The notes: a model not told the origin generated them from the letters alone. DNA of 64,000 bases from Strigamia acuminata (GCA_949358305.1 OX442314.1:8370001-8434000), one strand, 5' to 3'. Counted from the first letter of the stretch, positions 8,303 to 48,339 are shown. Translations and numbers: made by a program.

Positions 8303-8643
8303 TTATATGTCCACGCTTATGGTCACACTAAAAGCAACGCAAAGAAAAATGAGTAAAAATGCAGTGTCAACAAGATATGCTGAGTTACCATCTTACTTGA
8401 GATTAGGTCCACAAACACAAATATGCTGTGCATTGCAATATCCTTGTATACTTCCTGTGAGAAGAAGGCATTGAAGCTCACAGAGCAAGTCAACGCCCAA
8501 GCCACAAAGAGTCAGCTGTGCCATTGCTGCAACAAGATTTACATGTCAATACTGTGAGTGGAAAAAGTATTATTTTAAAAGTAGAATCATAACTTACCAA
8601 CACCCAAGTATGTCAAACAGAGAAAGATGATAAGAAATTTCAT
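8303..8643 (-). CDS. Defensin-like secreted peptide A (CS-alpha/beta; 3 exons 8643-8598, 8526-8397, 8327-8303; 66 aa)
   Basis: Manual splice with GT-AG introns (phase 1, phase 2): MKFLIIFLCLTYLGVAMAQLTLCGLGVDLLCELQCLLLTGSIQGYCNAQHICVCGPNLNVTISVDI*. Signal peptide plus C-x7-C-x3-C-x10-C-x5-C-x-C with GxC. Confidence 0.88.
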
Positions 8644-11007
8644 TTTGATCAACAAGTCTTTGAATCAATTCTCTATTTATACTGCAGTAATGACTGTCAA
8701 GGTCCTTGTTTACTCTTTCAGCAGTCATTTTAATCCCCAGATATGAAAGAATGCAGACTTTAATCCAAGTCTTGACCAATGGAGAGATAAATCCATATCA
8801 GTGTTGGTGGATTAACTTGAATTTCTGCTTCTTATGTGGAGCCAATGTCAGTGTCCGCCTAAAGATCACTTTCAAGCAATAATCCTAGTAACACTTTTAC
8901 ATTGGAATAACATCGTATAAATGTTGAAATGTTGACAACATGTTTTCTATTAGAAATACTATTTTAATTTTCATGTTATTGCACATTAGGCACCATCGTT
9001 TAGTGATTTTAACGGCTATTATACGAGGCAGTACGAAAAAAAAAATCAAAATTTCCCTCTCATTGTTAATATCGACTCATTATAATTTTTATTTTTATAT
9101 TGTTTAGGGCTATTTTACATGTAGATTTCAAATAAAAAATTAATTTTGCCATCAGTTTGGTCCTTCTATAAAATATCAAGTGGTCAAAAAAATTTGACCT
9201 GGAGTGTATATTCATTTCAAATGGGCTTGCGGATACTCTGAAAAATCCATAGATTGATTCATACAGATATCGGAGTTGCAATATTTTTAACAGCACTTAT
9301 CCATTTTGCAATTCTTTTAAAAGGATCTCATGTTTATCCCCGAGTCTTATTATTTACATTTATTCAGTCTCCGCCTCTCAAAATGCTTCACTCAACAACA
9401 TTTAGCTTTTTATCTCCATAGCAACACGAACTGTGTTCATCAGTTCAATTCCATACCCATTACTGTTCTTTTTGTCTCATTTCTCAGAGAGATAGGGAAA
9501 AAAAAGTAGAAAAATAGGATTGCATGCGTTTGCAATTTATCACAAGGATTAATTCAAGTGACATTTTTTTCCATCTAGTTTCAAGTCATCAAATTGCAAA
9601 TTTAAAAATAATCTTGCAAGTCAAATTAAATGGAATAAGCCTAACTCCCATAAGAACTGCACAAAATAATTTATGCAGTTGGAAAAAAATAAAGTTTTTA
9701 AATATGCAATTTTAATGAAATGCAGTGGATAATTTAAAACCAAAAAAAAAAGTTGGAAAATATCCCTAAAAACCATTTTATATCATCATATTTGTTTTTC
9801 TTCATTAATTTGAATAAAATTGTGCTAAAAATCGATTTTTCTAATGTAAAACCAACCCAAAGCTCTATGAATTCTAATACATGGCTCAGACTAAAATGAA
9901 GTGCTGGAGAATGGATTGTGGCATTCAAAATTCAAAATATATCTTAAAAAAATTTTTTTGGTATGATATATGCTTGTATTCCTTCCAGTTTTAAGGTTTT
10001 ACTGAATAAACTTTATATTTGCCCACAGAATTCACAAATTCTCATTGGTCAGAGGGAAAATTACACCTGGAAAAAATTCCCAATAATTTATTCGCTTTGT
10101 TGAAAGAGGGCTCTGATTACACTGAAGCGCTCCTGAAAAGAGCCGCGACAACTTGTTCACTTTATTGAAAGAGGGCGCTGATCACATTTAGAAAGCAAAC
10201 TTTTAGAGATTATTCCAAAGGTGAATTTCAAATTTGTTTCTTTTAAATTTATTCCAATTGAAAGAATAAACTTTTTTTTAACTTATTCCGGTTGAAAGCC
10301 GCCTTAAAATTTGGTATCAGTGATACACTTGAGGATTTTTGGAATAATGACAGGATATAAGAGTGTGATTTGCAAGAATCAGAGTTTATAAGATTACCCA
10401 AAGTGCCTCAGAGACTAAACAACATATAGATTTGCAAAATTTCTCTATTGTGGGAATTGTAAATTGCAACTTTCTTTCCAATGCATATCATGTTTTTTGT
10501 TGGAGATGAAACACAAACTCAAATCAAGATCCAAAACCAAGACATAGAATTTTTGTTTGCTTTTGTTTTCAATCAATGTCTGTGCAGTCAAAAATCACTT
10601 GCAGGTTGTCAATATGATTCCACAGTAATGTCATCCTGTTCAAACCCAATTGCAAGTGCACTCCAACTATTGCTCTTGTTATTTACCCTTAAAGCTGCAA
10701 TTCCCATTGTTTTAAGGCTCTTTCATCTAAAGTCTTAAAATAAATTGTATTTATGTTATAATCAAACAAAAATCAAACTGTGTGGACAATAATGATTGGC
10801 CTTTTAAGCCTTTCCAGCTATTTGCATATAAACTTGCTTTATTTATGGTGAAAACAAGATACAACAACAAAATCCAAATTATGCAAATCACCCTCTACTG
10901 AAGACTTATTTTAAATTAACCTATACCCTTATAATGACAACAACTCAAGTATCATTTTGATTCATTCTAGATTCAAGTGCTTTAGGTGTAAGGTGTAACA
11001 TTGTAGT

Positions 11008-11343
11008 CTACCGTCGGTTCATGTTTGTGTTCTCGCTGTATGAACACAAGGAAAAATCAGTAAAATGCAACACACAAAACATATTGAGGGTTAATCTCTT
11101 ACATGGAACGATCTTCACAAATACAATCCTGACTTTCATCACAATATCCAACGAAACGTCGAGTGTTAATGCGGCATTGGAGTCTACAGGGCATGTCACC
11201 ACCCAGTACACAAGGCAGATCAATTGCCATTGCTGCAACAAGAAACATGTCAAAACTACAATTGGAAACAATTATTCTTTTTTAAACAAGAAACATAACG
11301 TACCAACATGTATCAAACAGAATAAGATGATTAGGGATTTCAT
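11008..11343 (-). CDS. Defensin-like secreted peptide B (exons 11343-11304, 11232-11103, 11035-11008; 65 aa)
   Basis: MKSLIILFCLIHVAMAIDLPCVLGGDMPCRLQCRINTRRFVGYCDESQDCICEDRSIENTNMNRR*. Same exon phases and Cys spacing. 3' UTR (~10800-11000) is homologous to the other copies and has AATAAA. Confidence 0.88.
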
Positions 11344-11516
11344 GTCTGGTCAACTTGTTAGCCTGATACCACTTGTTTGTTTGTACTTTCCCACTGAAAT
11401 TTCATTCTTTTAAACCATCAGTGCAACTCGTCTGGCTTTTGTTGTGTCATGTGTGGTTAACCATCTGAAACAAACGATCAAAAATGAGAATTAAATTCAA
11501 ACTGAATATTGCTTAA

Positions 11517-13753: not shown

Positions 13754-13775
13754 TAAGAGAGACATTGTAGTCTAG

Positions 13776-14484
13776 TTAGTCGTCACTATAGGAAACACAA
13801 GAAAATATGAGTTAAAAGCAATGCAGATGTGAACAAGATATGTTGTTAAGCCTAGTTCACATATATGCATTAATGCATGCGTTAGCGCACCACAGCTGTT
13901 AGAATTTACACAATTGGTTCTCCGGTTTACCTGTGATAATTGTACCGTACTTACTTCATCATATAACTGTCTGTATAGTAAGGTACCAAATACTTGGATC
14001 TTTTACGTTGTTATATCTCACCTTTTAAGTTTTACTAGGTGTTCTCTCTACCCGGTTACTATATAAATTTTCCACTTCTTCTCATCTTGTTTGCAACCGT
14101 GCGTTGGCCGAAGCGCCTTGTGACTTCGTGCGATATAACGCACGACGGATGAAGTTGAAATATTTCAACTTTACGCTTGCGCGTTTAAGCTGATGCAACA
14201 ACGCATACCATGTGAACTAGCCTTTAGTTGCATAAGTTCTTACTTGGAGATGAAACAGATACAATCGTCCTGGTCATCACACGCTCCGGCAAAATGTCCA
14301 GTTGATATTAAGCAAGCTGATTTACAACCAAAGTCGCCACCTAGCTTACAAGATAAACTTGTTGCTGTAAAAAAGATACAGATCAATACTTACGAGTGTA
14401 AAAACTACAATTTTTAAACCAAAAACAAAACTTACCAACAACATGGATTAAACAGAATAAGCTTAAAATTATTAGAAATTTCAT
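13776..14484 (-). CDS. Defensin-like secreted peptide C (exons 14484-14436, 14364-14244, 13785-13776; 59 aa)
   Basis: MKFLIILSLFCLIHVVATSLSCKLGGDFGCKSACLISTGHFAGACDDQDDCICFISNDD*. GTAAG donors and TACAG/TATAG acceptors. TATATAAAAAG lies upstream on the minus strand (~14547-14557). Confidence 0.92.
13849..14223. mobile_element. Harbinger-type MITE in intron 2 of the tandem defensin units
   Basis: TTA|AGCCTAGTTCACAT ... ATGTGAACTAGCCT|TTA. Present at the same position in the later units. Confidence 0.65.
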
Positions 14485-16693: not shown

Positions 16694-17408
16694 TTAGTCG
16701 TCACTATAGGAAACATAAGAAAAAAATGAGTTAAAAGCAATGCAGATGTGAACAAAATATGTTGTTAAGCCTAGTTTACATACATGCATTGACGCATGCG
16801 TTAGCGCACCAAAGCTGTTAGAATTTACACAATTGGTTCTCCGGTTTCGCTGTGATAATTGTACTTACTTTATCATATAACTGTCTGTATAGTAAGGTAT
16901 CAAATAGGCTGCCTTACTTGGATATTTTACGTGGCTGTCATTTTGTTATATCTCACCTTTTAAGTTTTACCAGGTTTTCTCTCTACCCGGTTACTATGTA
17001 AAATTTACACTTCTTCTCAGGTTGTTTACCACCGCGCGTTGGCCGAAGCATCTTGTGACTTCTTGCAATATAACGCACCACGCATGAAGTTGAAATATTT
17101 CAACTTTATGCTTGCGCGTTGAAGGTGATGCAACAACGCATGCATGTGAACTAACATTTAGTTACATAAGTTCTTACTTGAAACAGATACAATCGTTCTG
17201 GTTATTACACATTCCCTGAAAATGTCCAGTTTCTACAAAGCAACTTGCTCTACAAGCTAAGTCGCCAGCTAGCTCACAAGACAAACTTGTTGCTGTAAAA
17301 AAGATACAGATCAATAGTTACGTAAAAATTACAAATTTTAAACCAAAAACAAAACTTACCAACAGCATGGATTAAACAGAATAAGCTTAAAATGATTAGA
17401 AATTTCAT
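16694..17408 (-). CDS. Defensin-like secreted peptide D (exons 17408-17360, 17292-17178, 16703-16694; 57 aa)
   Basis: MKFLIILSLFCLIHAVATSLSCELAGDLACRASCFVETGHFQGMCNNQNDCICFNDD*. Canonical splice sites, TATA upstream. Confidence 0.92.
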
Positions 17409-18577: not shown

Positions 18578-19076
18578 GTAGTATGCAACCATACCTTTGT
18601 CGCCGTCATAAACGCCAGTTTTCACACTTTTTTGCAGTTTTTTTTGGCATGCAGGTTTTTCTGCAGAATTTTGCAGTGGAGTGGACAACAGTAATAGGAC
18701 TCAAATGTTAGGTATATTCGTGCAATAATACAACGCAAAAGTTGTATGACTAAATTATTGTTGTAAAATTAAAGTTTTTATTATCTGTGTTCGGTTGCAG
18801 CTGATATGGAGTAGTGAACGTTTTTCCCAACATGGGATTTTCCCAACATTTGACCAACATCAAAGAATCTTGATAATGAATAAAGTTCTTTCCAGTTATT
18901 TCAATATGAACTTGGTTTATTCATGGTGAAAACAAGAATGTACACCAAAGTGATCAAAACAATGATATACAGTAACACTATCCCATCATACCCCAATTAC
19001 CCTCAACCAACGACATATTTTAAATTAACCCATACCCTTACAAAGACAACATCTCGTGTATCGTTGTAGTCCATAG

Positions 19077-19755
19077 TTAGCCGTTACTATAAGGAACACA
19101 AGAAAAAATGAATTAAAAGCAACGCAGATGTGAACAAGGTGTGTTGGTCACTGAGTGGGTTTTATTTATTTCTGACAGAGCCTAATAAAAGAATATTTTT
19201 CATGTTAAAAAAAAATAAAATTTGGGCCTTTACCACTGTTTAATAACAATTGAAAAACTTGATGGTTGTTGGCTGGATGACCTACGTCATTAGTTCGGTG
19301 GTGGTCTTGTTGCGCATGCGCAACAGACTAAGCATGCGAAGACGTCAGTTTTCAGTCTCGTAATACAATTACAATTTCAATCGAGATTTACTTGTATGAT
19401 AGTTAAAAAGTGCTTATTGTGTAAAAGTAAGAGCAATAAAAACAAAAACCGTTCTTTTTATGGATTTCCAACCAATCCTATCATCAGAAAACAATGGATT
19501 GATTGGATTGTTAACATATTTGGCCAGGAGAATGTGCAGGTGAATCAAGGTCAGCCATTATGGATCCAACCTAAGCTCAGAACTAGTTTCAGGTCCTGGA
19601 CCGGGACCGCGTTCCCTGTACGCGGTACACGGTGGACCGCGGACCGGGAACGCGGTCCCGGTCCAGGGACCGCGGTTCTTTTTAGCTGCCGGAACAGGAC
19701 CGCCGACCGCGCACAACACTGGGATTAAACAGAATAAAATGATAAGAAATTTCAT
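19077..19755 (-). pseudogene. Defensin-like pseudogene E (exon 1 truncated, exon 2 deleted, exon 3 remnant)
   Basis: ATG 19755 MKFLIILFCLI is cut at 19721 by a hAT MITE end. The Cys-rich exon is absent. Exon-3/UTR homology at ~18870-19090. Confidence 0.75.
19396..19545 (+). pseudogene. THAP-domain N-terminal fragment of a Kolobok-type transposase
   Basis: MIVKKCLLCKSKSNKNKNRSFYGFPTNPIIRKQWIDWI has the C2, FP and W THAP pattern. It lies inside sequence homologous to the TTAA-flanked element at 43177-43633. Confidence 0.7.
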
Positions 19756-22793: not shown

Positions 22794-23012
22794 TTGGATG
22801 ATGAACAGATACAATCCTTCTGGTCATCACACGCTACCTGAAAATGTCCATCGGATGTATAGCAATAACTTGCTGCACAAGCTAAGTCACCACCTAAGTG
22901 ACAAGACTAACTTGTTACTGTAAAAATATACAGATCAATACTTATGAGTGTAGTAAAAACATAACTTGCCAGCAACATGTATTAAACAGAATAAAATAAT
23001 TAAAAATTTCAT
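22794..23012 (-). pseudogene. Defensin-like pseudogene F
   Basis: MKFLIILFCLIHVA / VTS*SCHLGGDLACAASYCYTSDGHFQVACDDQKDCICSSS. In-frame TAG at 22907-22909, GC donor, altered Cys spacing, no exon 3 found. Confidence 0.82.
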
Positions 23013-24240: not shown

Positions 24241-25199
24241 TGTGGTGATCTCAAAATATTCACCAACTTAGAAGATTAAATTAATTATCTTCTAATTAAT
24301 TTGACTGTGGCACACGCCAAGTCAGATCATGTGACCGAGGGGAGAAATCCTCTCTAGGCACATATCACCCCAGGTTGTCCGGGGTGAAAACGGTTATTAG
24401 CCGTTATGGTGCAATATGGTGTAATAACCACTAGTTGCACCCATTTGAGCTAAGTGCGCAGGTTTTCTGCGCAATATTGAAGCGTGCTGGGCTCGCGTCT
24501 TGGCTCAAATCGGCACTCTGAAAAATACAACAACAACCTCAACATCACTGCGATATCTGCTCCGACAATACGTATTGATAGAGGACCGTTGTAACTCAGT
24601 TTCACCTGCTATCTTTGTGCCACCCAAAGCACAAAGCCAGCAATTCTGCTTGAATTAGCCGTAGCTAATTCCAGCAAACGAGAAGAAGAAGTTTCCCGAC
24701 GATCGTGAACCATCGCCGTCGCTGCCGCGCGAACGACAGCCACCGCCATCGTACGAGAGCCGGACGCCTACAGCCGTCAACCACCGCCGCCGAGCCGTCG
24801 CACGAGCCGTAGAAGGAGCCCACGAGAACCATCGTCTTCGACCATCGTTCGTGAGTTCAGCAAACGAAGACAATTCGCCTTCGCCTAACAACTGTGTGTT
24901 GTTTAAGCGCCATTTTAGCGCTTTGTAGCTTGCAACAGTCGTTGCAAGCCCTTCCATTGTTCCCGCTCATTTCATTTCGCGACTTGTCGCCATTGTGATA
25001 TTTTTAACTAGTCATTGTAATTTAAACGAATAAATACATATTTGTGATTTTTATTAATAAAACTGTCTTTTTATTTCTTTTCCTTAAACTTAACCCCTAG
25101 ATAATTTAAGGCCGCCGATTGTAAGTCTTTTATAGCATTCACCTGCGGTTTCTGCTTAATTTATTAGAAATTAAGTGGATAAAAACCCGGATCGCAGCA
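24241..25199 (+). repeat. 5' LTR (959 bp)
   Basis: TGTGGTGATC...GATCGCAGCA. No difference from the 3' LTR seen by eye. AATAAA at ~25029. Confidence 0.97.
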
Positions 25200-25201
25200 C
25201 G

Positions 25202-25219
25202 TGGGGGCCCGTCCGGGAT
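25202..25219 (+). promoter_or_regulatory. Primer-binding site, tRNA-Pro type
   Basis: TGGGGGCCCGTCCGGGAT versus the canonical tRNA-Pro PBS TGGGGGCTCGTCCGGGAT (17/18), 2 nt after the LTR. Confidence 0.9.
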
Positions 25220-25310
25220 AGTCATTGTATAACTTTGTTAGTTAAAATTTACCCGCCATTTTTATCTTGCTTATCTTTCTTCTCTATCCTTTCTTTATCC
25301 TCATTGAAAA

Positions 25311-28334: not shown

Positions 28335-28368
28335 ACGCAGATCCATCAGGTCTAGTGGACGCTGCGTC
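28322..28368 (+). promoter_or_regulatory. -1 ribosomal frameshift signal (A AAA AAC plus stem-loop)
   Basis: Heptamer 28322-28328 is in the gag frame just before TTG TAG. The pol frame is -1 and open across it. Hairpin GACGCAG(28334-40)/CTGCGTC(28362-68) with inner TCCA/TGGA. Confidence 0.85.
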
Positions 28369-32581: not shown

Positions 32582-32629
32582 TGTTGTCTTTCACCTTTTG
32601 GGTTTACCCAAAAGATCCGAGAAAGCAAT

Positions 32630-32750
32630 CTCGTGACGTCATTCGTAGTACCCGCTCGAATGACAACGTTAATCATACGTTATAATTAGTGACGTCACAA
32701 AGCGTCTCTAATCCAAGTTCGTGTTTGCAATCAACGAACTTAGTCACTTT
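32630..32750 (+). promoter_or_regulatory. Candidate internal promoter for ORF3
   Basis: Two TGACGTCA (CRE) palindromes (~32634, ~32690), TATAAT (~32682) and Inr-like TTAGTC (~32740), just upstream of ATG 32771. Confidence 0.4.
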
Positions 32751-32770
32751 TTCAAAAGTTTCGAGAGTGT

Positions 32771-35566
32771 ATGCATCGCATCGCCTACGTTACGACCCGA
32801 ATAGTTCGACAACCTGATCGTAAGTAATTTTTCTGTATGAAAAATTTGATAAAACATAAGATTTATGTATTATTTCTCTTTCAAGACGAAAGAATTTCCG
32901 AAATTACCGGAAAACGAAAGAGAATGGACGAGGAAGCGATCCAACTCCAGGCGGACGGAGAAATGCCCATGGAAGGGGCAAATGAAGACGTTCAATTGAC
33001 GCTTCAACAACGGGTAAATTATTAGAATAAATTTTTACCAAGTGTTTAAGTCAGAAAAATTGAGTAATTTCACTTTTCCTGACTTCAAACACAAGCCGCT
33101 AAAAAATAAAAATGGCGGCTATAAAAGTCACGTGCTTCAAGCATGTGCGAAGGGAGTTGCCATGACAACCAACATCCCTTAGTGACTCACAGCCACAAGC
33201 GCTAAGCTTAAAAAATATTTCAAATAAGAAATTATTTGTTTATTTTTAAATAAACTAATTTATTTATTTTTCTTCGAATATAGATCGAGAGGGATCGAGA
33301 AACACCATTCGCGCTTCCCGATCACGTGCCGACTCAGCACCCGCTGATTTTTCGAGCGGCATTGCCCGAAAAAATCAGAAGACTGAAGACGGCAAACAAT
33401 ACCTGGTGGAAGTTGCGCCACGACTTCAGCAGATCAGCGCTGCAAGGATTTGGTGCAAAAGGAAGATTCATCGAGCGCCTTCACGTGGACGGTGTCGACG
33501 AAATCGAGTGGACGCTCGACGAGAGCCCCCCAGGACCGCTTGCAGCAGAGTTGCTGCACAACCAGTGGCCAGTGACGCCACGAGAGCGTCACGAGCGCAG
33601 AAGAGCGCTAAAGAGTACCGGAATTAATTACGGTGCTCTAACCCAATTGAGGAAGAACCTCAAGACGACACAACGCGAAGTCGTTAAACGGTATCGCAAA
33701 TCCGTTCGTGACGGGAACCCACAACTTCCCGTCACACAAACCGAGCTCCACCAGTTGGCGCTCGCCGGGTGTTTTAACGATTTTCCGGGATTTTTCCCGT
33801 CCAAAGCACTCCGAGCTGCCGCGGTGCAGCTTCGCGTCGACGAAAATCGACAACTGGCTCGAGAACACGAGGCAGAGGAGCAAGCGCGTTGCGCTCTCCC
33901 TTTTTATCAAGAAGATGAAATTCCGGCCCCAGCGGCCATCAATCCTCCGCCGCAAGACGAGGATTTGAGGGTGGGGCAACTCCCTCCGCCGGTTCCAGTC
34001 CGACCGATGTTCCGCGAATCAAGCCGCGATCGAGAGGAACGTCAGAGGCGATCACGCCCATATTCGACTGACGCGCAGCCATCACGCCCGCAGTCGCGAC
34101 GAGGACGGACACCAGAGTCGTTTGGCTCGTCGTCTTCGCTGAGTTTCGAATCGGACTCCACAATTAAGTCCGCCCGAAGTAGCCGAACCGCCTCCACGTT
34201 CAAAGTGGACAACCCGGCTACTCCATACGCCATGAGACGTGTCGTCGGTGATATTTCTCCCGACTGTAGTGTGCCTGTACCTGGACACGCTAGCCGCTTG
34301 CCCGAACAAGGTTATGTTTCCCGCTTGCCGGCTGGAGTTAGCAACCTGCAACTCCGGCCATTTTTCAGTGAGTCGTTCGGCCCACAATGGACCTGCTACG
34401 AGCAGCAACCCATTAGAGCGCAGCAGGAAGTGCTCCAGAAGCTGGACGCATACCAAAGCGCCCAGATCGCCGAGTCACAGAAGGACTGGCAGAGACTAGC
34501 TGAAAGGCTAGAAGTCTCCGACATCAATACCATTGATGATCCCCGCCTGATGGATTTTCAGCGTCAGCTAATTCCGGGGATGACTAGGGTGTTGTACCCT
34601 GGTGTTCTTCCTTCGCCAGGACAGGCGTTAGCGGCCATTACGTACCTTTGGACCGCGCCGATGGGCCTGTCGGAGAAGAAAGTCGAGCTGTGGTACCACC
34701 TCAGGCTCGACCCGCCTACGATCTTAGCCGAGCTAATAAAGCAAGTCGTAGCAAACGGTGAGACCGAAGAAGAGGCCGCCGTTCGGTTGCGAACCGAGTG
34801 GTCCTTTGCGAAGGCCACGGCGCGAATGACCGGAAGACCACCGCTTCCAGTTACAAGCGCCACAGCAGCTGCGTCACTGGCTGTTTTCCAGTCGGCTCAA
34901 GAGGGCGCTGGATGTTCATTTTGGCCAGAGAACGCCGGAAGTTCTCAAACTCCAGCCGGAGTTCAACGGGTAGTCGAAACCCGTCAGCTCCCCGGTGTGG
35001 GTCGAGCACCGGGACGAGGCGTCACACCCTCGTCAACCTCCGCACCCGCGTTGGTTTTCTTGGGCCCGCAGTGCCATTTTGACGATGCCACGACGGAAGA
35101 CTCACGTCCGCCGCCGCCGCCGCCAGCCAAGCCGGAGACGAAGGTCAAGCCGCTGAAAAAAGAGTCGGCTTTCAAGACCCTGATGCGCCTGTATCCGCAC
35201 TTCTATTTGACGCCGGATACGCGAACACTGCTTAGCAACAACCACAAGTTGTCGAGGCAGGTGTTTATGTGGCTCGAGGACCACATCCGGGTGTTAAGCC
35301 CACCATCAGTGCTCCACGATCGACTCCTGAGAGCACGATTGGCGCCAGAGGATCCCATAGAGTTTGCGGCGCTAGGATTTTTCAACCGAGCGAACTCGGC
35401 GAGAATCATCCAGGTTTGGCTTCATGTCAACCCTGGAATGGTCTCCGGACCAAACGCAGGTCGCGACCTGTGTACGGTTAACGAGCGGTCCAACCCGAGG
35501 GACGACACCACGGATATGATGCGCCCGTTGACGCCTGAGCGAACTCAGACCATGGACGAATCATAA
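32771..35566 (+). CDS. Spliced non-env accessory gene (ORF3) of the Gypsy element (exons 32771-32819, 32886-33013, 33284-35566; ~819 aa), function unknown
   Basis: Donors C|GTAAGT (32820) and CGG|GTAAAT (33014). Acceptors TTTCTCTTTCAAG (32885) and TTTTCTTCGAATATAG (33283). AT-rich introns; both junctions keep frame: MHRIAYVTTRIVRQPDH-ERISEITGKRKRMDEE...LQQR-IERDRETPF...PTQHPL... No signal peptide or TM segment evident. Confidence 0.8.
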
Positions 35567-35605
35567 ATTGGTTCGTTCATTTTCTCTCCATGTAAGATTC
35601 GTCTT

Positions 35606-35618
35606 AAATGGGGGGATG
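35606..35618 (+). other. Polypurine tract
   Basis: AAATGGGGGGATG immediately before the 3' LTR. Confidence 0.8.
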
Positions 35619-36577
35619 TGTGGTGATCTCAAAATATTCACCAACTTAGAAGATTAAATTAATTATCTTCTAATTAATTTGACTGTGGCACACGCCAAGT
35701 CAGATCATGTGACCGAGGGGAGAAATCCTCTCTAGGCACATATCACCCCAGGTTGTCCGGGGTGAAAACGGTTATTAGCCGTTATGGTGCAATATGGTGT
35801 AATAACCACTAGTTGCACCCATTTGAGCTAAGTGCGCAGGTTTTCTGCGCAATATTGAAGCGTGCTGGGCTCGCGTCTTGGCTCAAATCGGCACTCTGAA
35901 AAATACAACAACAACCTCAACATCACTGCGATATCTGCTCCGACAATACGTATTGATAGAGGACCGTTGTAACTCAGTTTCACCTGCTATCTTTGTGCCA
36001 CCCAAAGCACAAAGCCAGCAATTCTGCTTGAATTAGCCGTAGCTAATTCCAGCAAACGAGAAGAAGAAGTTTCCCGACGATCGTGAACCATCGCCGTCGC
36101 TGCCGCGCGAACGACAGCCACCGCCATCGTACGAGAGCCGGACGCCTACAGCCGTCAACCACCGCCGCCGAGCCGTCGCACGAGCCGTAGAAGGAGCCCA
36201 CGAGAACCATCGTCTTCGACCATCGTTCGTGAGTTCAGCAAACGAAGACAATTCGCCTTCGCCTAACAACTGTGTGTTGTTTAAGCGCCATTTTAGCGCT
36301 TTGTAGCTTGCAACAGTCGTTGCAAGCCCTTCCATTGTTCCCGCTCATTTCATTTCGCGACTTGTCGCCATTGTGATATTTTTAACTAGTCATTGTAATT
36401 TAAACGAATAAATACATATTTGTGATTTTTATTAATAAAACTGTCTTTTTATTTCTTTTCCTTAAACTTAACCCCTAGATAATTTAAGGCCGCCGATTGT
36501 AAGTCTTTTATAGCATTCACCTGCGGTTTCTGCTTAATTTATTAGAAATTAAGTGGATAAAAACCCGGATCGCAGCA
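35619..36577 (+). repeat. 3' LTR (959 bp)
   Basis: Direct repeat of 24241-25199 (offset 11378). Confidence 0.97.
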
Positions 36578-36974: not shown

Positions 36975-39900
36975 TTAGTCAACCCTATAGAAAACACAAG
37001 AAAAAATGTGTTAAAAGCAACGCAGATGTGAACAAGGTGTGTTGTTAATGGTCAAGTGCACCGAGTGGGTTTTATTTTTTTTTGACAGAGCCTAATAAAA
37101 AATTGTTATTAAACAATGATAAAGGCCCAAATTTTATTTTTTTTTAACATGAAATACATTTTATCATTAGGTTCTATCAGAAAAAAATAAATCTCACTCG
37201 GTGTGCTTGAATTTTAAGCCTAGTTCACATAGGTGTAGGACCACATTTGCGATCGCCAAATTTGCGATCGTGAAAATTGGTGTCAAAATTGCGACGTTCT
37301 GAATTTGCGACGAATTAAAAAAAATAAAAATAAAAAAATAAAATAAAATAAGAAATGATCCCAAATTTGCGATGGACCACATTTGCGACGTCCCAAATTT
37401 GCGACGTCCTAAATTTGCGACGTCTCAAATTTGCGACGAGTTTTAGCTTCGTTTCTGCCGTATCATTGTTTCTGCTGTATCATTGTTTTTGCCGTACCAT
37501 TGTCTCTGCCGTATCATTGTTGCATTCGCCTTTACCGCTGTTGCACCGTGATCGTTTCCTATCGTTTTTCGCGTCGACCTCGTAATTGTTTCCTAGGTAA
37601 ATATTCGGAATTTGGTATTCGGTAAATGGCAGTGTTTACGATTAAGTCATTATGACGAAAACAAGACACAAACATAAACAACTTTCACTCGTTTTGAAAG
37701 AATTTTCATAACTTTTTACACATTTTGAAAAATTTTTCACCACTTTTTGCTCGTTTTGAATGATTTTCACCACTTTTTGCTCGTTTTGAGTGATTTTCAC
37801 TACTTTTAAATCGTTTTGAATGATTTTCACAACTTTTTGCTCGTTTTGAATGATTTTCACAACTTTTAAATCGTTTTGAATGATTTTCACAACTTTTAAA
37901 TCGTTTTGAATGATTTTTCACAACTTTTTACATTGTATCGGAAATTCTAAGTTGTTTGTGTTTGCTTATACCCATCATCATGACGTCATTCGTAAACTTT
38001 TCCATTTAATAAATTATTCAGTGCACCACTAATTTGTATCTATTCTTGAAAGATGGCTTCCTCCTTAACACGAATTCCTTCCCACGCTAAAATCGATTCT
38101 CGACAATGGTACGACGGTCAGAAATTTATATTTCGGGAAGATAAGCTGTTTGTTGAGGATGACAACTTAATGTTAATGCGATGCTGTGTGCAAACTTGCC
38201 GTAGTCGCGGACGTCTCGATCTGACCACTCATGAGTTTAATATGACTACTGCGCACTCTCATGGCACAACTCCACTCGTTGTGAACACCAAATTATTTGC
38301 GTACGAACTCGTCAGTAACTGCAAAAAACTTAACCCATCAGCGTCAAAGAAACCCGAATATGATAAGCTGTGCGTAAAGTACCCGGACGTTGCGTCGGCG
38401 AAGCCCTATACGCGTTTCAAGTCTATGCTGAGTAGACTATGCAGAAGAGATATCCCAAAGCTTGATAGCATGAAGGAATTTTACAAATTCTTTGAAATGC
38501 AGAAGCACGAAGTTGTCCTCGAGGAGCGGATTTCGTACATCTATGACACAACATTGATTGCAGCAGACGGCTCAATCAGTGTTTTTTTTATTAACCGCGA
38601 ACTGTGTGCACAAATACAGCCAAAGTGTAAGGAGTATCATACTGACGCAACGTTTAAGGTGGTGCCGCAATTTGCCAATGCTGCCAACGGTTCTTTCACC
38701 CAGTTTCTCACTGTTCAGGGCATGGTCGGAAAGAAACTAATTCCATTTTGCTTCTGTCTCATGACTAGGAAGTCTGCTTGTGCGTACGAGCGGTTATTCG
38801 GACACTTGGCTGTAATCATGGATTCTATTATAGCTGGTAGCACATTCATGACAGATTTTGAGCCTGCATTGTATAAATCAATTGAATCAGCATTCCCGTT
38901 GTGTCAAGTTGTGCACTGCAGTTTTCACTTTTGTGAATCACTTCGCCGCAAGGCAATGAAGCTCGGCCTGCAACCGTTCTACAGCACCAACGAATATGCG
39001 TGGGCGGCGATTCACTTAGTCATGGCTATAGTGTACCTACCGGCTGCGAGGGCGGAGATAGCACTCGAAGTTGTGGAGACATACTGGAACTCAGCGGCGC
39101 GGGTGGGCAGATTAGCTGATCTTATGTCGGAATTTTTTGCCTACTTTCGACAGTACTGGTTGGTGGAAGTCACAGCCACACGTTTCAGCGTTTTTGGTTT
39201 GGCACATCGGACGAACAACAGTCTCGAGTCGTGGCATTCATCTCTTCCTGCAACGCTTGGAAAACATACACTCCCTGTCCACTTTGTAGTCGCCTTATCG
39301 CAAGTCGACCACACAGCCACGGTTAATTTTGCACAAGAGATGCGTGATCTGGAAACGCAACAGCCGCAATGCAAGTCGTACTTGCTGAATGATACGTGTA
39401 TAAAGAATCTAATGGCCAAGTTTGAAGACCGTACGCTAAACGAACTCGAGTTCCTGAAGGCCATGGCCTACCGTGTTTCCATGATGAGGGAAGGTTTTTC
39501 TTTGGATTGCAACGGCGCGATCCCTAATGGTTTGCTGGCCGCACCACCCGTTGAGCCGCGAATCCCACAGGTGAACGTCACTGGTCGGTATGTTCGCCCA
39601 GTCCTGCCCGCAGACCCACCACAGTTCAATCTAGATGACGCCCTCGCAGCAGCAACCGCACAAACGGCAGTTGCACGGACGACAACTCGCAACCCAAATC
39701 CACCGGCACGTCGCCGTGGCCGCCCGCGTATTCACCCGCTGCCAACCACTGCCAACCGGCCCCCTGTGCAACTCCGACGCTCTCCACGCAACCGACTGTC
39801 CGAGCCACAACCAGAAGCTGCTGAACGACGTAGCAGATCACCGAACGACGATATTTTAGAGCCGCCTGTCCAACTCCGACGCTCTCCACGCAACCGACTG

Positions 39901-41530
39901 CCCGAGCCACAACCAGAAGTTGCTGAACGACGTAGCAGATCACCGATCAACGATATTTTAGAGCCCCCTGTCCAACTCCGACACACTACACGAAACCTAG
40001 CTGCACGTATTCCACAGGCAATACCTGTACCACAGGTAATAACTGTTGGAGAAGATTCGGATGATGAATTGGGTATTGCACCGGATGTGTGGCACAGAAT
40101 TGGAGAACAGCAACGCTTACAGCGCATTCAGCGCTTACCCGTAGAAGTCCACACATTGGCAACAGAGTTGGTTGAGTTCTTGACTCAAGCGGTCGAAAAC
40201 TTAATTGCCACCAGAGAACCAAATGACTTCACTTGCCAGCTGTGTAGCACAAACCAGTGCAACATCTCATACAGGTGCGGTCACATGGTTTGTGCAGCCT
40301 GTGCAAAAAAGGCAGTGTTAGTAAATGTGGAGTTGAAATGTCACGTGTGTCGAATAACGGTCACGAAGCGGGAAGATCTGCATAGACTGTTTGCTAACTA
40401 AACACTTCTTTTCAAATAAGTTCCATTTCAATAAACAATTTTTTATAAATATAATTAATACATTTTTATTTCCTTATTACATTCTGTTCAAAAACGTACC
40501 GAAAATCACTGAAAATGATCAGAAATGAACAAAACCACCCAAAAATGACCACAAAACCATCCAAAAATGACCGAAAACCACCAAATAATAACCAAAACCT
40601 TGCCCACAACTTTAATCTTAATCATTAAAAAATTTCACACTTGATTCGCTGTTATTTTCTGTTATGTTCGATACATTTACGTCCATTTTAGTTATTTTTG
40701 GTTGGTTTTTGGTAACATTTTCGTGATTTTTGTTCAATTCCGATCATTTTCAGTCGTTTTTTGTTCAATTCCGATCATTTTCAGTCGTTTTTTGTTCAAT
40801 TCCAATCATTTTCAGTCGTTTTTTGTTCAATTCCAATCATTTTCAGTCTAATTTGGGAGGTCGCATTGTTGGGAGCTTACTCAATTATCGTGCGCTTAAA
40901 AACTTTTATTCGTCGCAAATTTGAGAGGTCGCATTGTTGGGAGAGATTTAATAATAATGTGCGTCGCAAATTTGGGACGTCGCAAATTTGGTCCGCGCAA
41001 ATTTGGTCCGCGCAAATTTAGGATCGCAATTTTAGCGATCGCAAATTTGACGATCGCAAATTTGAACCCCGCCCGTTCACATACATGCATTAACGCATGC
41101 ATTTTGCGCACCAAAACTGCTTAGTTCACATGCACGCTTTACTACCGTGCGTTGGCCGAAGCGCCTTGTGACTTCGTGCGATATAACGCACGACGGATGA
41201 AATTGAAATATTTCAACTTTACGCTTGCGCGTTTAAGCTGATGCAACAACGCACACATGTGAACTAGCCTTTAGTTACATAAGTTCTCACTTGGAATATG
41301 TACAAATACAATCATTCTGGTCATTACACGCTCCCGCAAAATATCCAGTTGAAAAACGACAACTTTCTTTACAACCAAAGTCGCCATCTAGCTTACAAGA
41401 TAAACTTGTTGCTGTAAAAAAGATACAGATCAATACTCATGTAGTAAAAACTACAATTTTTAAACCAAAAACAAAACTTACCAACAACATGGATTAAACA
41501 GAACAAGCTTAAAATGAATAGAAATTTCAT
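36975..41530 (-). CDS. Defensin-like secreted peptide G (exons 41530-41482, 41411-41291, 36984-36975; 59 aa); MULE in intron 2, Gypsy in 3' UTR
   Basis: MKFLFILSLFCLIHVVATSLSCKLDGDFGCKESCRFSTGYFAGACNDQNDCICTYSKVD*. GTAAG and GTGAG donors. Confidence 0.88.
37232..41074 (+). mobile_element. Autonomous-looking Mutator-like element (MULE), 3843 bp
   Basis: 9-bp TSD GTTCACATA (37223-37231, 41075-41083). Imperfect G-starting TIRs with AAATTTGCGA(T)CG repeats. Subterminal ~30-bp minisatellites (37720-37930, 40725-40850). Single intact ORF. Confidence 0.92.
38053..40401 (+). CDS. MULE DDE transposase with FLYWCH-like N-terminus, AT-hook and C-terminal RING finger (782 aa)
   Basis: TDATFK, MTDFE, CSFH and RTNNSLESWHS MULE motifs. 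RRRGRPR. Repeated PPVQLRRSPRNRL. C3HC4 CQLC..CGHMVCAAC..CHVCR. Confidence 0.92.
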   Translation: MASSLTRIPSHAKIDSRQWYDGQKFIFREDKLFVEDDNLMLMRCCVQTCRSRGRLDLTTHEFNMTTAHSHGTTPLVVNTKLFAYELVSNCKKLNPSASKKPEYDKLCVKYPDVASAKPYTRFKSMLSRLCRRDIPKLDSMKEFYKFFEMQKHEVVLEERISYIYDTTLIAADGSISVFFINRELCAQIQPKCKEYHTDATFKVVPQFANAANGSFTQFLTVQGMVGKKLIPFCFCLMTRKSACAYERLFGHLAVIMDSIIAGSTFMTDFEPALYKSIESAFPLCQVVHCSFHFCESLRRKAMKLGLQPFYSTNEYAWAAIHLVMAIVYLPAARAEIALEVVETYWNSAARVGRLADLMSEFFAYFRQYWLVEVTATRFSVFGLAHRTNNSLESWHSSLPATLGKHTLPVHFVVALSQVDHTATVNFAQEMRDLETQQPQCKSYLLNDTCIKNLMAKFEDRTLNELEFLKAMAYRVSMMREGFSLDCNGAIPNGLLAAPPVEPRIPQVNVTGRYVRPVLPADPPQFNLDDALAAATAQTAVARTTTRNPNPPARRRGRPRIHPLPTTANRPPVQLRRSPRNRLSEPQPEAAERRSRSPNDDILEPPVQLRRSPRNRLPEPQPEVAERRSRSPINDILEPPVQLRHTTRNLAARIPQAIPVPQVITVGEDSDDELGIAPDVWHRIGEQQRLQRIQRLPVEVHTLATELVEFLTQAVENLIATREPNDFTCQLCSTNQCNISYRCGHMVCAACAKKAVLVNVELKCHVCRITVTKREDLHRLFAN

Positions 41531-43102: not shown

Positions 43103-44111
43103 TTAGTCGTCCCTATAGGAAACACAAGAAAAAATGAGTTAAAAGCAACGCAGATGTGAACAAAGTGCGTTGTTAAAGGTCAAGTGCACTGAGTGGGTTT
43201 TATTTTTTTTCTGATAGAGCCTAATAAAAAAATATTTTTCATGTTAAAAAAAATAAAATTTGGGCCTTTATCAATTGAAAAACTTGACTTTTTCAATGTG
43301 ATGCATGATGGTTGTTGGCTGGATGACCTACGTCATCAGTTCGGCGGTGGTTGGTAGTGGTGGTGTTGCGCATGCGCAGTGAACAGTTTTCACTCCCGCA
43401 ATCAAGGTCAACCAATATGAATCCGACCTAAGCTCAGAACAAGTTCCAGGTCAACTGAACTAGAGAACTGACAACGTCATACTCCCATGATTCTTTGCCT
43501 TGTCAACACCCGATATTGCGATTGTTATTAAACAATGATAAAAACCCAAATTTTATTTTTTTTTAACATGAAAAATATTTTTTCATTAGGCTCTATCAGA
43601 AAAAAAATAAAACTCACTCAGTGCACTTGACTTTTAAGCCTAGTTCACATACAAGCATTAACGCATGCGTTTTGTGCACCAAAGCTGCTTAGTTCACATG
43701 CACGCTTTACTACCGCACGTTGGCCGAAGCGCTTTGTGACTTCGTGCGATATAACGCACGACGGATGATGTTGAAATATTTCAACTTTAAGCCTGCGCGT
43801 TGAAGCTGATGCAACAAGGCATGCATGTGAACTGGCCTTTAGTTAAATAAGTTCTTACTTGGGAGATGAACAGATACAATCCTTCTTGTCATCACAATGT
43901 CCCTCAAAACGTCCAGTTGATGCTACGCAAGTTGCTTTACAACCAATGTCGCGAATATTAATATTAGCCAGACAAGCCAAACTTATTGCTGTAAAAAAGA
44001 TACAGATCAATACTTATGAGTGTAAAAACTACAATTTTTAAACCTAAAACAAAACTTACCAACAACATGATGGATTAAACAGAATAAGCTTAAAATGATT
44101 AGAAATTTCAT
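43103..44111 (-). CDS. Defensin-like secreted peptide H (exons 44111-44060, 43988-43859, 43112-43103; 63 aa)
   Basis: MKFLIILSLFCLIHHVVAISLACLANINIRDIGCKATCVASTGRFEGHCDDKKDCICSSPKDD*. First loop is C-x10-C. Confidence 0.92.
43177..43633. mobile_element. Non-autonomous Kolobok-type element in intron 2 (shorter versions ~37049-37212 and 47694-47859; THAP-bearing partial at ~19145-19590)
   Basis: TTAA|AGGTCAAGTGCACTGAGTG ... CACTCAGTGCACTTGACTT|TTAA with ~95-bp TIRs. Confidence 0.78.
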
Positions 44112-44341
44112 TTTTGATGGATGGTCTTGCGGTAGAAAGAGAGGAACTAACGAAGAGCAGATGAAGGACCTTGTCTTTACTAGTATGTGTTGCTGATGTG
44201 GCAGCGATACTGTATGTATTCATATGTTTACCAAGCGTCATATGACGCGTGCTTGGTGTACAGGCAAAATGGCGGATGGTTATCACGTGACCGTGCAGTG
44301 AATTGTGGATCAGCGATTGCTTGGCAACAAGTTCGAATATA

Positions 44342-46217: not shown

Positions 46218-46988
46218 CAGGGTGTCCCAAAAGTCTGAACCACCCTAAATATTTCGTGAACAATTGCATCTAGGCCAACTTTGATGAAGCAATCGTACAG
46301 AAAGTTGGGTGAGAGCAATCCAATGATGTCATCAAATTTGACCTTGAAGGCCGTTTTCAAGGTCATTCACTTGCTAACTTCTAAACCAATCAGGTTACAG
46401 AAAAATTTCCAATTACAAAGTTGCAGAGCGCCATCTAATTAGTCTAGAACTGTTCTTAAAAAAATTATCTCTTACTGAAAAGTTTTGAGAAAAAAAGGTT
46501 TGAAACATTGGTCTACTCAGCTTTGTAACTCAGCTTTGTAAACTAAAACTATTGAGGCAACCAAGCTAATCCTCAATTAGGACACTTTATTGGGTCATAC
46601 TTGTAAGTAGAAGAGAGGAAACACAAAAGAAAGGAACTAATTTATTTTGGAAATACATTCCACATGATAGTGTTAGGTTACAAAGCTGAGTAGACTAACA
46701 TTTAAACCTTTTTTTCTCAAAACGTTTCAGTTATAGATAATTTTTTGAAGAACAGTTCTAGACTAATTAGATGGTGCTCTACAACTTTGTAATTGAAAAT
46801 TTTTCTCTAACCTGTTGGTTTAGAAGTTAGCACAAATGAATGACCTTGAAAATGGCCTTCAAGGTCAAATTTGATGACATCATTGGATTGCTCTCACCCA
46901 ACTTCCTATACGATCGCTTCATCAAAGTTGGCCTAGATGCAATTGCTCAGGAAATATTTAGGGTGGTTCAGACTTTTGGGACACACTG
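46218..46988. mobile_element. Tc1/mariner-type fold-back MITE
   Basis: TA|CAGGGTGTCCCAAAAGTC ... GACTTTTGGGACACACTG|TA. Same outer TIR family as 21441 and 44342, different core. Confidence 0.85.
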
Positions 46989-47619
46989 TATATAGAATGA
47001 CAGCCTGTTTCTGCTCTTTATTTTCCTAAATTATCATAAAATGAATAAAGTTCTTTCCAGTTATTTGCATATGAACTTGGTTTATTCGTGGTGAAAACAA
47101 GAAAACACAGCAAAATGATCAAAACAATGATAAAACACTATTCCATCATATCCCAATTACCCTCAACCAAAGACATATTTTAAATTAACCCATACCCTTA
47201 CAAAGACAACATCTCATGTATCATCTTGATTCAAAAAAACAAGCATTATTAACTTAGTTTCAAGATGCAATTGATGTCAAGTGCTGAACAGAGCCAAATA
47301 GAAGTGATTTTTGTGGAAATAATTGCCGATGTCTAAATGTCGTACTGTAGTCCAATTCCGGTGGAAAACTAATGCCTTGTTCACACTTAAACCACTTTTG
47401 TAGAAGTTATGGTTAATTTCGATAAGTATACTTCAGAGCAGTCATACTTTTAGTACAAATTAGCGACGTTTTTAACAAGAAGTGACGTCAAAAGTGACTT
47501 TTTCAACTTGTACAAAGCCATTCCAAATGTGAATAACAGAGTTTCTAAAAGCTGTCTGGACGAAAAGTGGTTAAAGTGTGAACTAGGCATAAACTTAAGA
47601 GACACGTTGTAGTCTATAG

Positions 47620-48339
47620 TTAGTCGTCCCTATAGGAAACACAAGAAAAAATAAGTTAAAAGCAACGCAGATGTGAACAAGGTGCGTTGTTAAAGGTCAA
47701 CTGCACTGAGTGGGTTTTATTTTTTTTCTGACAGAGCCTAATAAAAAATTGTTATTAAACAATGATAAAGGCCCAAATTTTATTTTTTTTAACATGAAAA
47801 ATATTTTTTCATTAGGCTCTATCAGAAAAAAAATAAAACTCACTCGGTGCACTTGACTTTTAAGCCTAATTCACATACATGCATTAACGCATGCGTTTTG
47901 CGCAACAAAGCTGTTTAGTTCACTTGCACGCTTTACTACCGCGCGTTGGCCGAAGCGCCTTGTGACTATTCATGCGCTATAACACACGACGGATGAAGTT
48001 GAAATATTTCAACTTTAAACTTGCGCATTGAAGCTGATGCAACAACACATACATGTGAACTAGCCTTTAGTTACATAAGTTCTTACTTGAACTGTGTACA
48101 AATACAATTCTTCTTGTCATCACATTTTCCCGCAAAACGTCCAGTTGATGCTGCGCAAGTTGATTCACAACCAAAGTCACGGTTGCCAGCACTTAGCATA
48201 CAAGCCAAACTTGTTGCTGTAAAAAAGATACAGATCAATACTTATGAGTGTAAAAACTACAATTTTTAAACCTAAAACGAAACTTACCAACAACATGATG
48301 GATTAAACAGAATAAGCTTAAAATGATTAAAAATTTCAT
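47620..48339 (-). CDS. Defensin-like secreted peptide I (exons 48339-48288, 48216-48087, 47629-47620; 63 aa)
   Basis: MKFLIILSLFCLIHHVVATSLACMLSAGNRDFGCESTCAASTGRFAGKCDDKKNCICTQFKDD*. Confidence 0.92.

What the first reader, a model, noticed from the sequence alone, without database searches (positions are those of the whole stretch)
8303..48339. Hidden tandem family of nine three-exon defensin-fold peptide genes with hypervariable mature domains
Seen: nine minus-strand copies (7 intact, 2 pseudogenes) share one architecture: signal-peptide exon / phase-1 intron / Cys-core exon / phase-2 intron / tiny tail exon. All intact copies have C-x7-10-C-x3-C-x10-C-x5-C-x-C with GxC. None appears in the ORF track. 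Signal exons, introns and 3' UTRs of copies C-I are highly similar, while inter-Cys residues differ extensively, including a 3-codon loop insertion in H and I. Knowledge: this spacing is the cysteine-stabilised alpha/beta scaffold of invertebrate defensins and scorpion-type toxins. Inference: an unannotated effector family under birth-and-death evolution and diversifying selection.
Basis: partly seen in the sequence, partly recalled or inferred. Interest (0 to 1): 0.9.

Follow-up and report, generated by a model that had tools for sequence, protein, structure and literature searches.

The report
Fast-evolving arthropod defensin-like peptide cluster
This stretch of an arthropod genome, likely a centipede's, holds a row of seven intact and two broken copies of a small gene predicted to make secreted defensin-shaped peptides whose business end changes about three times faster than the DNA around it, likely because they are host-defence molecules in an arms race; it is a new example of a familiar kind of gene cluster.

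Summary
Seven intact minus-strand copies (A-D, G-I) have a signal exon, a phase-1 intron, an exon with C-x7/10-C-x3-C-x10-C-x5-C-x-C, a conserved phase-2 donor and a short tail exon. E and F are fragments. No RNA run was available, so splicing is predicted, but splice-site conservation and a centipede homologue's tail support it. AlphaFold models give a helix plus hairpin; structural matches are CS-alpha/beta peptides, though none is significant alone. Among C, D, G, H and I, exon 2 differs by 23% against 6-8% in flanks, intron 1 and 3' UTR. A codon site test supports positive selection at about 30% of sites; whole-exon dN/dS (1.3) is not significantly above 1. The cores are neutral to acidic, lack a propeptide, and none has the scorpion K-C-x-N signature. 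The best-scoring named relative is from the centipede Strigamia maritima. The architecture has precedents in wasp nasonins and navidefensins; centipede SLPTX02 is a candidate family I could not test. Verdict: a real, fast-evolving defensin-like cluster, a new member of a known kind, with untested function.

The parts
8303..8643 (-). Copy A, intact: exon 1 8643-8598, exon 2 8526-8397, exon 3 coding 8327-8303; introns 71 and 69 nt; old lineage, resembles Strigamia T1JFM8
11008..11343 (-). Copy B, intact: exon 1 11343-11304, exon 2 11232-11103, exon 3 coding 11035-11008; introns 71 and 67 nt
13776..14484 (-). Copy C, intact: exon 1 14484-14436, exon 2 14364-14244, exon 3 coding 13785-13776; AATAAA about 514 nt after acceptor 2
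16694..17408 (-). Copy D, intact: exon 1 17408-17360, exon 2 17292-17178, exon 3 coding 16703-16694
18880..19755 (-). Copy E, pseudogene: promoter and first 33 or so nt of exon 1, cut by an insertion; no exon 2; exon 3 acceptor at 19086 and a shortened 3' UTR
22794..23012 (-). Copy F, pseudogene: exon 1 23012-22970 with GC donor, exon 2 22917-22794 with an in-frame stop at 22909-22907; no exon 3 of its own found
36975..41530 (-). Copy G, coding-intact: exon 1 41530-41482, exon 2 41411-41291, exon 3 coding 36984-36975; intron 2 is 4306 nt; the 3' UTR continues at 36974-36578 and, beyond the gypsy element, at about 24240-24059
43103..44111 (-). Copy H, intact, with 3-codon n-loop insertion: exon 1 44111-44060, exon 2 43988-43859, exon 3 coding 43112-43103
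47620..48339 (-). Copy I, intact, with 3-codon n-loop insertion: exon 1 48339-48288, exon 2 48216-48087, exon 3 coding 47629-47620
24241..36577 (+). Ty3/gypsy-type LTR retrotransposon inserted in the 3' UTR of copy G; two 959-bp LTRs with 0 mismatches and a 4-bp target duplication, so recent
37232..41074 (+). Mutator-like DNA transposon (MULE domain ORF 38050-40401) inside intron 2 of copy G, 9-bp target duplication
13850..14222 (.). Short inverted-repeat element (MITE-like) that entered intron 2 of the C-I ancestor (coordinates for copy C, approximate); without it intron 2 of C and D is 85-86 nt, against 67-69 nt in A and B

Best explanation
The cluster is a tandem family of genes predicted to encode small secreted six-cysteine CS-alpha/beta (cis-defensin-fold) peptides, likely host-defence effectors of a myriapod-like arthropod, expanded by local duplication and diversified by likely positive selection on non-cysteine residues. 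Shown: seven open three-part reading frames with conserved splice signals, invariant Cys, Asp, Thr and Gly, two decayed copies, and exon 2 diverging about three times faster than its own introns and flanks. Inferred: exon 1 supplies the signal peptide; cleavage leaves a 40-50 residue peptide with three disulfides, no propeptide and a short, mostly acidic tail; the fixed scaffold displays variable helix and strand positions. The cores carry net charge -3 to +1, so they would most likely act by binding a specific microbial or parasite target rather than by cationic membrane disruption, each paralogue covering different target variants.
For: Motif, gene models and chance control. Donor 2 hexamer kept across lineages A, B and C-I while flanks share only 4 of 9 and 3-5 of 12 bases; 21 of 2961 TAA/TGA triplets on that strand have this context. 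Exon 3 of A matches the tail of Strigamia T1JFM8; only 1 of 2145 stop-free post-AG peptides from the window, a set that includes A's own, scores as high (post hoc). Models: pLDDT 78 and 77, helix then two strands. Pfam Defensin_2 in 5 of 7 copies, best E 0.0012; copy A hits lucifensin, sapecin and defensin A at E 0.003-0.007. Profile search: 21 hits, 19 with the motif, best named one Strigamia T1ISR3, annotated 'invertebrate defensins family profile'. Divergence: exon 2 p = 0.234 vs 0.055-0.076 for 5' flank, exon 1, intron 1, the end of intron 2 and 3' UTR; minimum changes per column 45/74 at codon positions 1+2 vs 136/839 non-coding. M1a vs M2a LRT 28.1 and 16.7 under two frequency models, about 30% of sites at omega 5-9; 14.3 on gap-free columns, 11.0 up to the last Cys, 0 of 57 null simulations above 4.3. 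Relatives with the same spacing occur in rotifers, a nematode and a firefly, and with a longer loop in Mortierella, none known to me as venomous. Wasp nasonin-1, with the same precursor type, kills Gram-negative bacteria (PMC2853521, passages).
Against: No expression, induction or activity data. No copy reaches the Pfam Defensin_2 cut-off, and C and D have no Pfam hit. No fold match is significant alone (Foldseek best E 0.39 and 0.87, VIA best Z 3.8), and the top rows are scorpion toxins as often as defensins; the Atlas's best hits are scorpion short-toxin clusters at 0.82-0.83, a lead only. PMC5116183 (passages) states that six-cysteine spacing cannot tell a toxin from an antimicrobial peptide. 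Most insect defensins are cationic with a dibasic propeptide (PMC5506212, passages); these are not. A simple kappaB-like pattern found 0 sites in 500 nt upstream of each of the 7 genes (crude pattern). Whole-exon omega is not significantly above 1. Synonymous differences in amino-acid-identical codons (20 of 139 pairwise sites) are above the 6-8% flank level, so gene conversion or local mutation may add to the contrast. 74 of 385 pairwise codon comparisons differ at 2-3 positions, which can inflate site tests and was not in the null simulation.
Confidence: 0.55

Rival explanations
1. The peptides are venom or defensive-gland components: a defensin-fold family recruited into a secretion and diversifying against prey or predator targets such as ion channels.
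For: Conserved signal and introns with a hypervariable mature exon is typical of toxin families (general knowledge). Top structural and Atlas rows are scorpion short toxins. [quoted passage not shown] The closest named relatives are centipede proteins.
Against: 0 of 7 copies carry the complete K-C-x-N scorpion-toxin signature, and the n-loop is 7-10 residues (signature from PMC5004176 and PMC5116183). Most SLPTX02 tips are labelled trunk, anterior, whole-body or without tissue, not venom gland, and none is from Strigamia (supplementary figure S41 text). Relatives occur in non-venomous taxa. The host is not identified with certainty.
Confidence: 0.2
2. The peptides are non-lytic ligands (reproductive, symbiont-controlling or other recognition signals) built on the CS-alpha/beta scaffold and coevolving with a receptor.
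For: Neutral to acidic cores; rapid site-specific change; plant receptor-ligand peptides of the same fold appear among the structural rows (5gyy and 5yah).
Against: No receptor gene or expression evidence in the window. The same acidic scaffold occurs in rotifers and fungi, which fits a general defence role better. Anionic insect defensins with antibacterial activity are reported (PMC5506212, passages).
Confidence: 0.15
3. The genes are real but the apparent acceleration of exon 2 is largely non-adaptive: gene conversion homogenises flanks and introns, or exon 2 mutates faster, while inter-cysteine residues drift neutrally.
For: Whole-exon omega 1.33, not different from 1. Pairwise synonymous divergence in exon 2 is above flank level. 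The 3' region gives a star-like tree with weak support, unlike the 5' region. Many codons have multiple hits.
Against: Synonymous changes at the 14 invariant codons number 3 against 2.3 expected at the non-coding rate, whereas second codon positions show 20 changes against 6 expected. Divergence drops at both exon-2 borders. The site test exceeds all 57 null simulations.
Confidence: 0.1

Closest known systems
Strigamia maritima unreviewed proteins T1ISR3 (two defensin-profile domains) and T1JFM8
   Same: Near-identical cysteine spacing (7-3-10-5-1 twice; 6-3-10-5-1), similar loop motif, no cationic bias; copy A is 57% identical to T1JFM8 over 37 residues, groups with it at 95/89 support and has a similar signal and tail.
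   Different: T1ISR3 has two domains in one chain; all window copies are single-domain. Neither protein has a tested function that I could find, and their gene structure could not be fetched.
Centipede SLPTX02 (scoloptoxin family 2; defensin-like, six cysteines, C-C-C-C-CxC)
   Same: Six-cysteine CS-alpha/beta peptides with many paralogues across all five centipede orders, with non-metazoan homologues, activity unknown (PMC4379518 table; PMC6878950 supplement; PMC7864903 methods).
   Different: Many SLPTX02 transcripts are multidomain, and no genomic cluster or selection analysis was seen in these papers. The sequences were not in the stored part of the supplement, so homology is untested.
Nasonia nasonins and navidefensin1-1 / honeybee defensin1
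   Same: Nasonins: no propeptide, short n-loop, tandem duplication, phase-1 intron after the signal peptide. Navidefensin1-1 and amdefensin1: phase-2 intron at a lysine after the CXC motif (PMC2853521, passages).
   Different: That study detected no positive selection within the defensin or nasonin families. Navidefensins have a propeptide. The two intron features are described there in different subfamilies but occur together here. No sequence-level orthology shown.
Classical insect defensins (Pfam Defensin_2: sapecin, lucifensin, defensin A)
   Same: Cysteine array C-x(4-16)-C-x3-C..GxC..CxC; weak sequence hits.
   Different: Below the Pfam cut-off in 7 of 7; no dibasic propeptide; net core charge -3 to +1 against a typical +3/+4 (PMC5506212).
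Scorpion short-chain potassium-channel toxins (alpha-KTx)
   Same: Fold and size; top Foldseek and Atlas rows.
   Different: Complete K-C-x-N signature in 0 of 7, longer n-loop, not cationic.

Membership tests
CS-alpha/beta (cis-defensin) superfamily | Cysteine array with CxxxC, GxC and CxC (C2-C4, C6, C8, C9 of the reference array in PMC5116183) | tested here: met
   7 of 7 intact copies (definition)
CS-alpha/beta (cis-defensin) superfamily | Helix followed by a two-stranded sheet | tested here: met
   Predicted only: AlphaFold models of copy I (H12-24, E29-31, E37-39; pLDDT 78) and copy A (H12-23, E28-30, E35-38; pLDDT 77); the top 20 VIA rows are defensins or scorpion-type peptides (by title or recall) but best Z is 3.8
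CS-alpha/beta (cis-defensin) superfamily | Disulfide pairing C1-C4, C2-C5, C3-C6 | not testable with these tools
   Model coordinates are not exposed; needs mass spectrometry or NMR
CS-alpha/beta (cis-defensin) superfamily | Secreted precursor with signal peptide | tested here: inconclusive
   Exon 1 encodes Met-Lys plus a hydrophobic run (9-residue hydropathy 3.1-3.3); no signal-peptide predictor was available and splicing is unconfirmed
Classical insect-type defensin (Pfam PF01097) | Score above the Pfam gathering cut-off (20.4 bits) | tested here: not met
   Best 19.1 bits (copy A); 5 of 7 weak hits, 2 of 7 none
Classical insect-type defensin (Pfam PF01097) | Propeptide ending in a dibasic site | tested here: not met
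   Only 4-6 residues of exon 2 precede Cys1, with no dibasic pair; feature from PMC5506212
Classical insect-type defensin (Pfam PF01097) | Cationic mature peptide (typical, not absolute) | tested here: not met
   Core charge -2, 0, -3, -3, -2, 0, +1 for A, B, C, D, G, H, I, histidine not counted
Classical insect-type defensin (Pfam PF01097) | Antimicrobial activity and immune induction | not testable with these tools
   No assay; no RNA run listed
Nasonin-type defensin-like peptides | No propeptide, short n-loop, phase-1 intron after the signal peptide, tandem array | tested here: met
   an architectural match only, descent not shown
Nasonin-type defensin-like peptides | Sequence clustering with nasonins | not tested
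   No nasonin sequence was returned by the sequence searches; nasonin-1M appears only at Z 2.0
Centipede SLPTX02 | Six cysteines in the pattern C-C-C-C-CxC | tested here: met
   Pattern from the PMC4379518 table; met by 7 of 7, but not specific to the family
Centipede SLPTX02 | Phylogenetic grouping with SLPTX02 sequences | not testable with these tools
   Sequences lie beyond the stored part of the PMC6878950 supplement; the 2014 source paper is not held
Centipede SLPTX02 | Host is a centipede | tested here: inconclusive
   The globin exon points to an arthropod; best named relatives are from Strigamia, but unnamed hits score higher
Scorpion alpha-KTx toxins | K-C-x-N toxin signature at the GxC cysteine | tested here: not met
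   0 of 7 complete; signature from PMC5004176 and PMC5116183, which also note partial signatures can retain some channel activity

The most novel reading that the evidence does not exclude
[quoted passage not shown] Its members do not attack membranes by charge but bind a specific enemy target; in centipedes this branch is the missing antimicrobial-effector repertoire and the reservoir from which SLPTX02 venom peptides were recruited twice. The C-I radiation then records an ongoing arms race on a mapped binding surface.
Probability: 0.25. Interest if true: 0.7.

Novelty: new member of a known kind. Interest (0 to 1): 0.45.

Why it matters
The Strigamia genome paper reports finding no antimicrobial peptide homologues (PMC4244043, passages), and an arthropod-wide survey found the Defensin2 domain only in Ixodes and Mesobuthus (PMC4833078, passages). 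A clean, positively selected cluster of sub-threshold defensin-fold genes in a likely myriapod shows what such annotations miss. It provides seven natural variants on one scaffold with candidate selected sites, which makes it testable whether myriapod defensin-like peptides are immune effectors or venom precursors, and how acidic defensins act. It does not add a new kind of system.

Tried and rejected
No whole genome is held for this window, so family size outside the window is unknown. Sequencing runs: no RNA holder listed, which says nothing about expression. The two holders X1 and X2 (one study) cover all 30 bins of 8200-17500 including intergenic DNA, and no listed joint matches a predicted intron (15 of 22 joints shown); they behave as DNA and do not test splicing. 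Allele and paralogue counts in those runs stay open. The word-index homologue search with the seven exons alone found nothing; with seven homologues added it gave 25 hits, 6 of them members of the query alignment and most named others from rotifers. Two of the 21 profile hits (P0016, P0017) are long repeat proteins and were dropped. A weak tblastn hit at 12189-11989 lies in a repeat and is not a tenth copy; tblastn with 8 homologues and blastn with gene parts found no further copy. My first label of F as frameshifted was wrong; it is an in-frame stop. The tree of 39 short domains (7 window copies plus 32 domains from 28 of the 82 proteins held) has 38 columns and 5 well-supported forks of 35, so it neither shows nor rejects monophyly of the window's copies. 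The Atlas gave only hits under 0.9. Earlier scan findings: nothing in 3 look-ups. Literature searches for a myriapod defensin cluster returned no paper describing one, judged from listings and the passages read; the library lacks most subscription journals, the 2014 paper that named SLPTX2 is not held, and the 2019 Structure paper on centipede CS-alpha/beta toxins was seen only as a reference.
Full report
What is there. A six-frame scan of the 64-kb window finds a six-cysteine motif 7 times, all on the minus strand; 100 triplet shuffles give the strict motif 0 times. Each motif sits in the same gene layout: ATG-AAA, a 40-52 nt hydrophobic exon ending in phase 1, a 67-71 nt intron, a 115-130 nt exon holding the whole cysteine core, a GT(A/G)AGA donor in phase 2, and an acceptor followed by a 3-9 residue tail. 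Spacing is 7-3-10-5-1 in A, B, C, D and G and 10-3-10-5-1 in H and I. Nine positions are invariant: six Cys, one Asp, one Thr and the Gly of GxC. E lacks exon 2 and has a cut exon 1; F has an in-frame stop in exon 2, a GC donor and no exon 3 of its own. No tenth copy was found.

Is the third exon real? Splicing could not be tested directly. The donor overlaps an in-frame stop, so sequence alone allows a two-exon reading. Three things favour splicing. The hexamer is kept across A, B and C-I while the bases around it have diverged, and only 21 of 2961 TAA/TGA triplets on that strand have this context. All 7 intact copies, and fragment E, keep a pyrimidine-rich acceptor, and intron 2 of C and D shrinks to 85-86 nt once a MITE-like insert is set aside, against 67-69 nt in A and B. 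The tail of A matches the tail of Strigamia T1JFM8 better than all but 1 of 2145 control peptides, a set that contains A itself (a post hoc test). A phase-2 intron at a lysine after CXC is also described for navidefensin1-1 and honeybee defensin1 (PMC2853521, passages). AATAAA occurs inside intron 2 of G, H and I, so intron-retaining forms are possible; they would differ by 2-3 residues.

Fold. AlphaFold gave a helix and two short strands for copy I (7-sequence alignment, pLDDT 78) and copy A (single sequence, pLDDT 77). Foldseek and VIA rows are dominated by defensins and scorpion-type peptides, but none is significant alone (best E 0.39 and 0.87, best Z 3.8). Pfam Defensin_2 hits 5 of 7 copies, all under the cut-off; copy A hits three insect defensins in the PDB at E 0.003-0.007. 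[quoted passage not shown]

Relatives and host. A profile search of 1.84 billion representatives gave 21 hits at E up to 0.001, 19 with the motif. Of the top 10 only one is named, Strigamia maritima T1ISR3. Named hits among nine further ones looked up are Strigamia T1JFM8, a firefly, a nematode, Mortierella and bdelloid rotifers. Copy A is 57% identical to T1JFM8 over 37 residues and pairs with it at 95/89. Of 32 homologous domains examined, 21 have the exact 7-3-10-5-1 spacing and 25 are net negative; the search profile biases both counts. An exon at 404-630 on the plus strand is 49% identical to Daphnia neuroglobin-like proteins. The host is therefore an arthropod and likely a myriapod (inference, about 0.7).

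Selection. Among the five young intact copies (C, D, G, H, I), mean pairwise difference is 0.234 in exon 2 against 0.076 (5' flank), 0.061 (exon 1), 0.055 (intron 1), 0.075 (end of intron 2) and 0.070 (3' UTR). The start of intron 2 gives 0.134, inflated by a misaligned last block; its other blocks are 0.06-0.12. Minimum changes per column are 45 of 74 at codon positions 1+2 against 136 of 839 in non-coding DNA, while the 14 invariant codons carry 3 synonymous changes against 2.3 expected. Pairwise dN/dS is at or above 1 in 9 of 10 pairs (0.57-3.9). In my own implementation of codon models, one-ratio omega is 1.33 and not different from 1 (p = 0.37), whereas M2a beats M1a by 28.1 or 16.7 depending on codon frequencies, with about 30% of sites at omega 5-9: helix positions, the two residues flanking the Gly of GxC, and the residues after the last Cys. 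On gap-free columns the statistic is 14.3, and 0 of 57 simulations under M1a exceeded 4.3. Against this: only five sequences; 74 of 385 pairwise codon comparisons differ at two or three positions; synonymous differences in amino-acid-identical codons are 20 of 139; the null had neither multi-nucleotide changes nor gene conversion.

Turnover. A and B are old lineages with saturating divergence from C-I. C-I descend from one copy that had gained the intron-2 insert. E and F have decayed. G has taken a Mutator element in intron 2 and a gypsy element with identical 959-bp LTRs in its 3' UTR, so it may be impaired. Contigs of two public runs differ from the window by a 1331-bp segment between B and C and by scattered substitutions, including in exon 1 of B and exon 2 of D in one run, so the region is likely polymorphic.

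How it likely works. Exon 1 would route the product to secretion; signal cleavage would release a three-disulfide peptide with no propeptide, as in nasonins. The cores carry charge -3 to +1, whereas about half of insect defensins carry +3 or +4 and act largely through surface charge, with rare anionic exceptions (PMC5506212, passages). None has the complete K-C-x-N channel-toxin signature (PMC5004176, abstract and passages). I therefore favour target-specific host-defence peptides (0.55) over venom or gland toxins (0.2), non-lytic ligands (0.15) and non-adaptive divergence (0.1). The placement of selected sites on exposed faces is inferred from general CS-alpha/beta geometry, not measured.

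Comparison with what is known. Tandem CS-alpha/beta families with these intron phases are described in Nasonia, where no selection signal was found within them. In centipedes, SLPTX02 is a six-cysteine defensin-like family of unknown activity (PMC4379518, table and passages), found across all five orders and in the venom proteomes of two species (PMC6878950, passages and parts of the supplement), and judged ancient from its wide homologues (PMC7864903, passages). Its alignment lies in the part of the supplement that was cut, so membership is untested and could lower novelty further. The Strigamia genome paper found no antimicrobial peptide homologues, and a domain survey found Defensin2 only in a tick and a scorpion. 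PMC10051947 and PMC7232367 (passages) added nothing decisive. My searches turned up no description of a myriapod defensin gene cluster in the held library.

Verdict. This is a new member of a known kind: real, likely under positive selection, probably in a poorly studied lineage, function untested. Interest 0.45.

Noticed in passing
window 404-630 (+): First coding exon of a globin gene with an N-terminal Met-Gly-Cys extension, 49% identical to Daphnia neuroglobin-like proteins and ending in a phase-2 donor. No further globin exon was found in the window, so the whole peptide cluster may lie antisense inside an intron of more than 63 kb, or the exon is a fragment.
   Followed up: partly
window 24241-36577 (+): Very recent gypsy-type element: gag-like ORF 25308-28334, pol 28313-32581, and a third 760-codon ORF 33284-35566 with no Pfam hit and no clear transmembrane segment. 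The sequence after the 5' LTR resembles a tRNA-Pro primer site (recalled, not tested).
   Followed up: partly
window 37232-41074: Mutator-like element with a 783-codon ORF (MULE domain; C-terminal cysteine cluster seen by eye) inserted into the terminal repeat of the MITE in intron 2 of copy G, with a 9-bp target duplication.
   Followed up: partly
window 11517-12849: A 1331-bp segment bounded by 94-bp inverted repeats is skipped in contigs of runs X1 and X2: a likely polymorphic insertion just upstream of copy B.
   Followed up: no
window 21436-22660, 44336-45286, 46214-46993: Three copies of one foldback element family with 160-420 bp inverted arms, one in intron 2 of F, one just upstream of H and one between H and I.
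   Followed up: no
window 56595-57016, 37684-37953, 63732-63996: Tandem repeats with units of 31, 30 and about 10 or 19 bases.
   Followed up: no
window 41875-42000: A perfect 126-bp palindrome upstream of copy G.
   Followed up: no
proteins P0008, P0021, P0066-P0070: Bdelloid rotifers carry a conserved family with the same 7-3-10-5-1 spacing and an acidic tail of about 22 residues; its relation to arthropod and fungal members was not resolved.
   Followed up: partly
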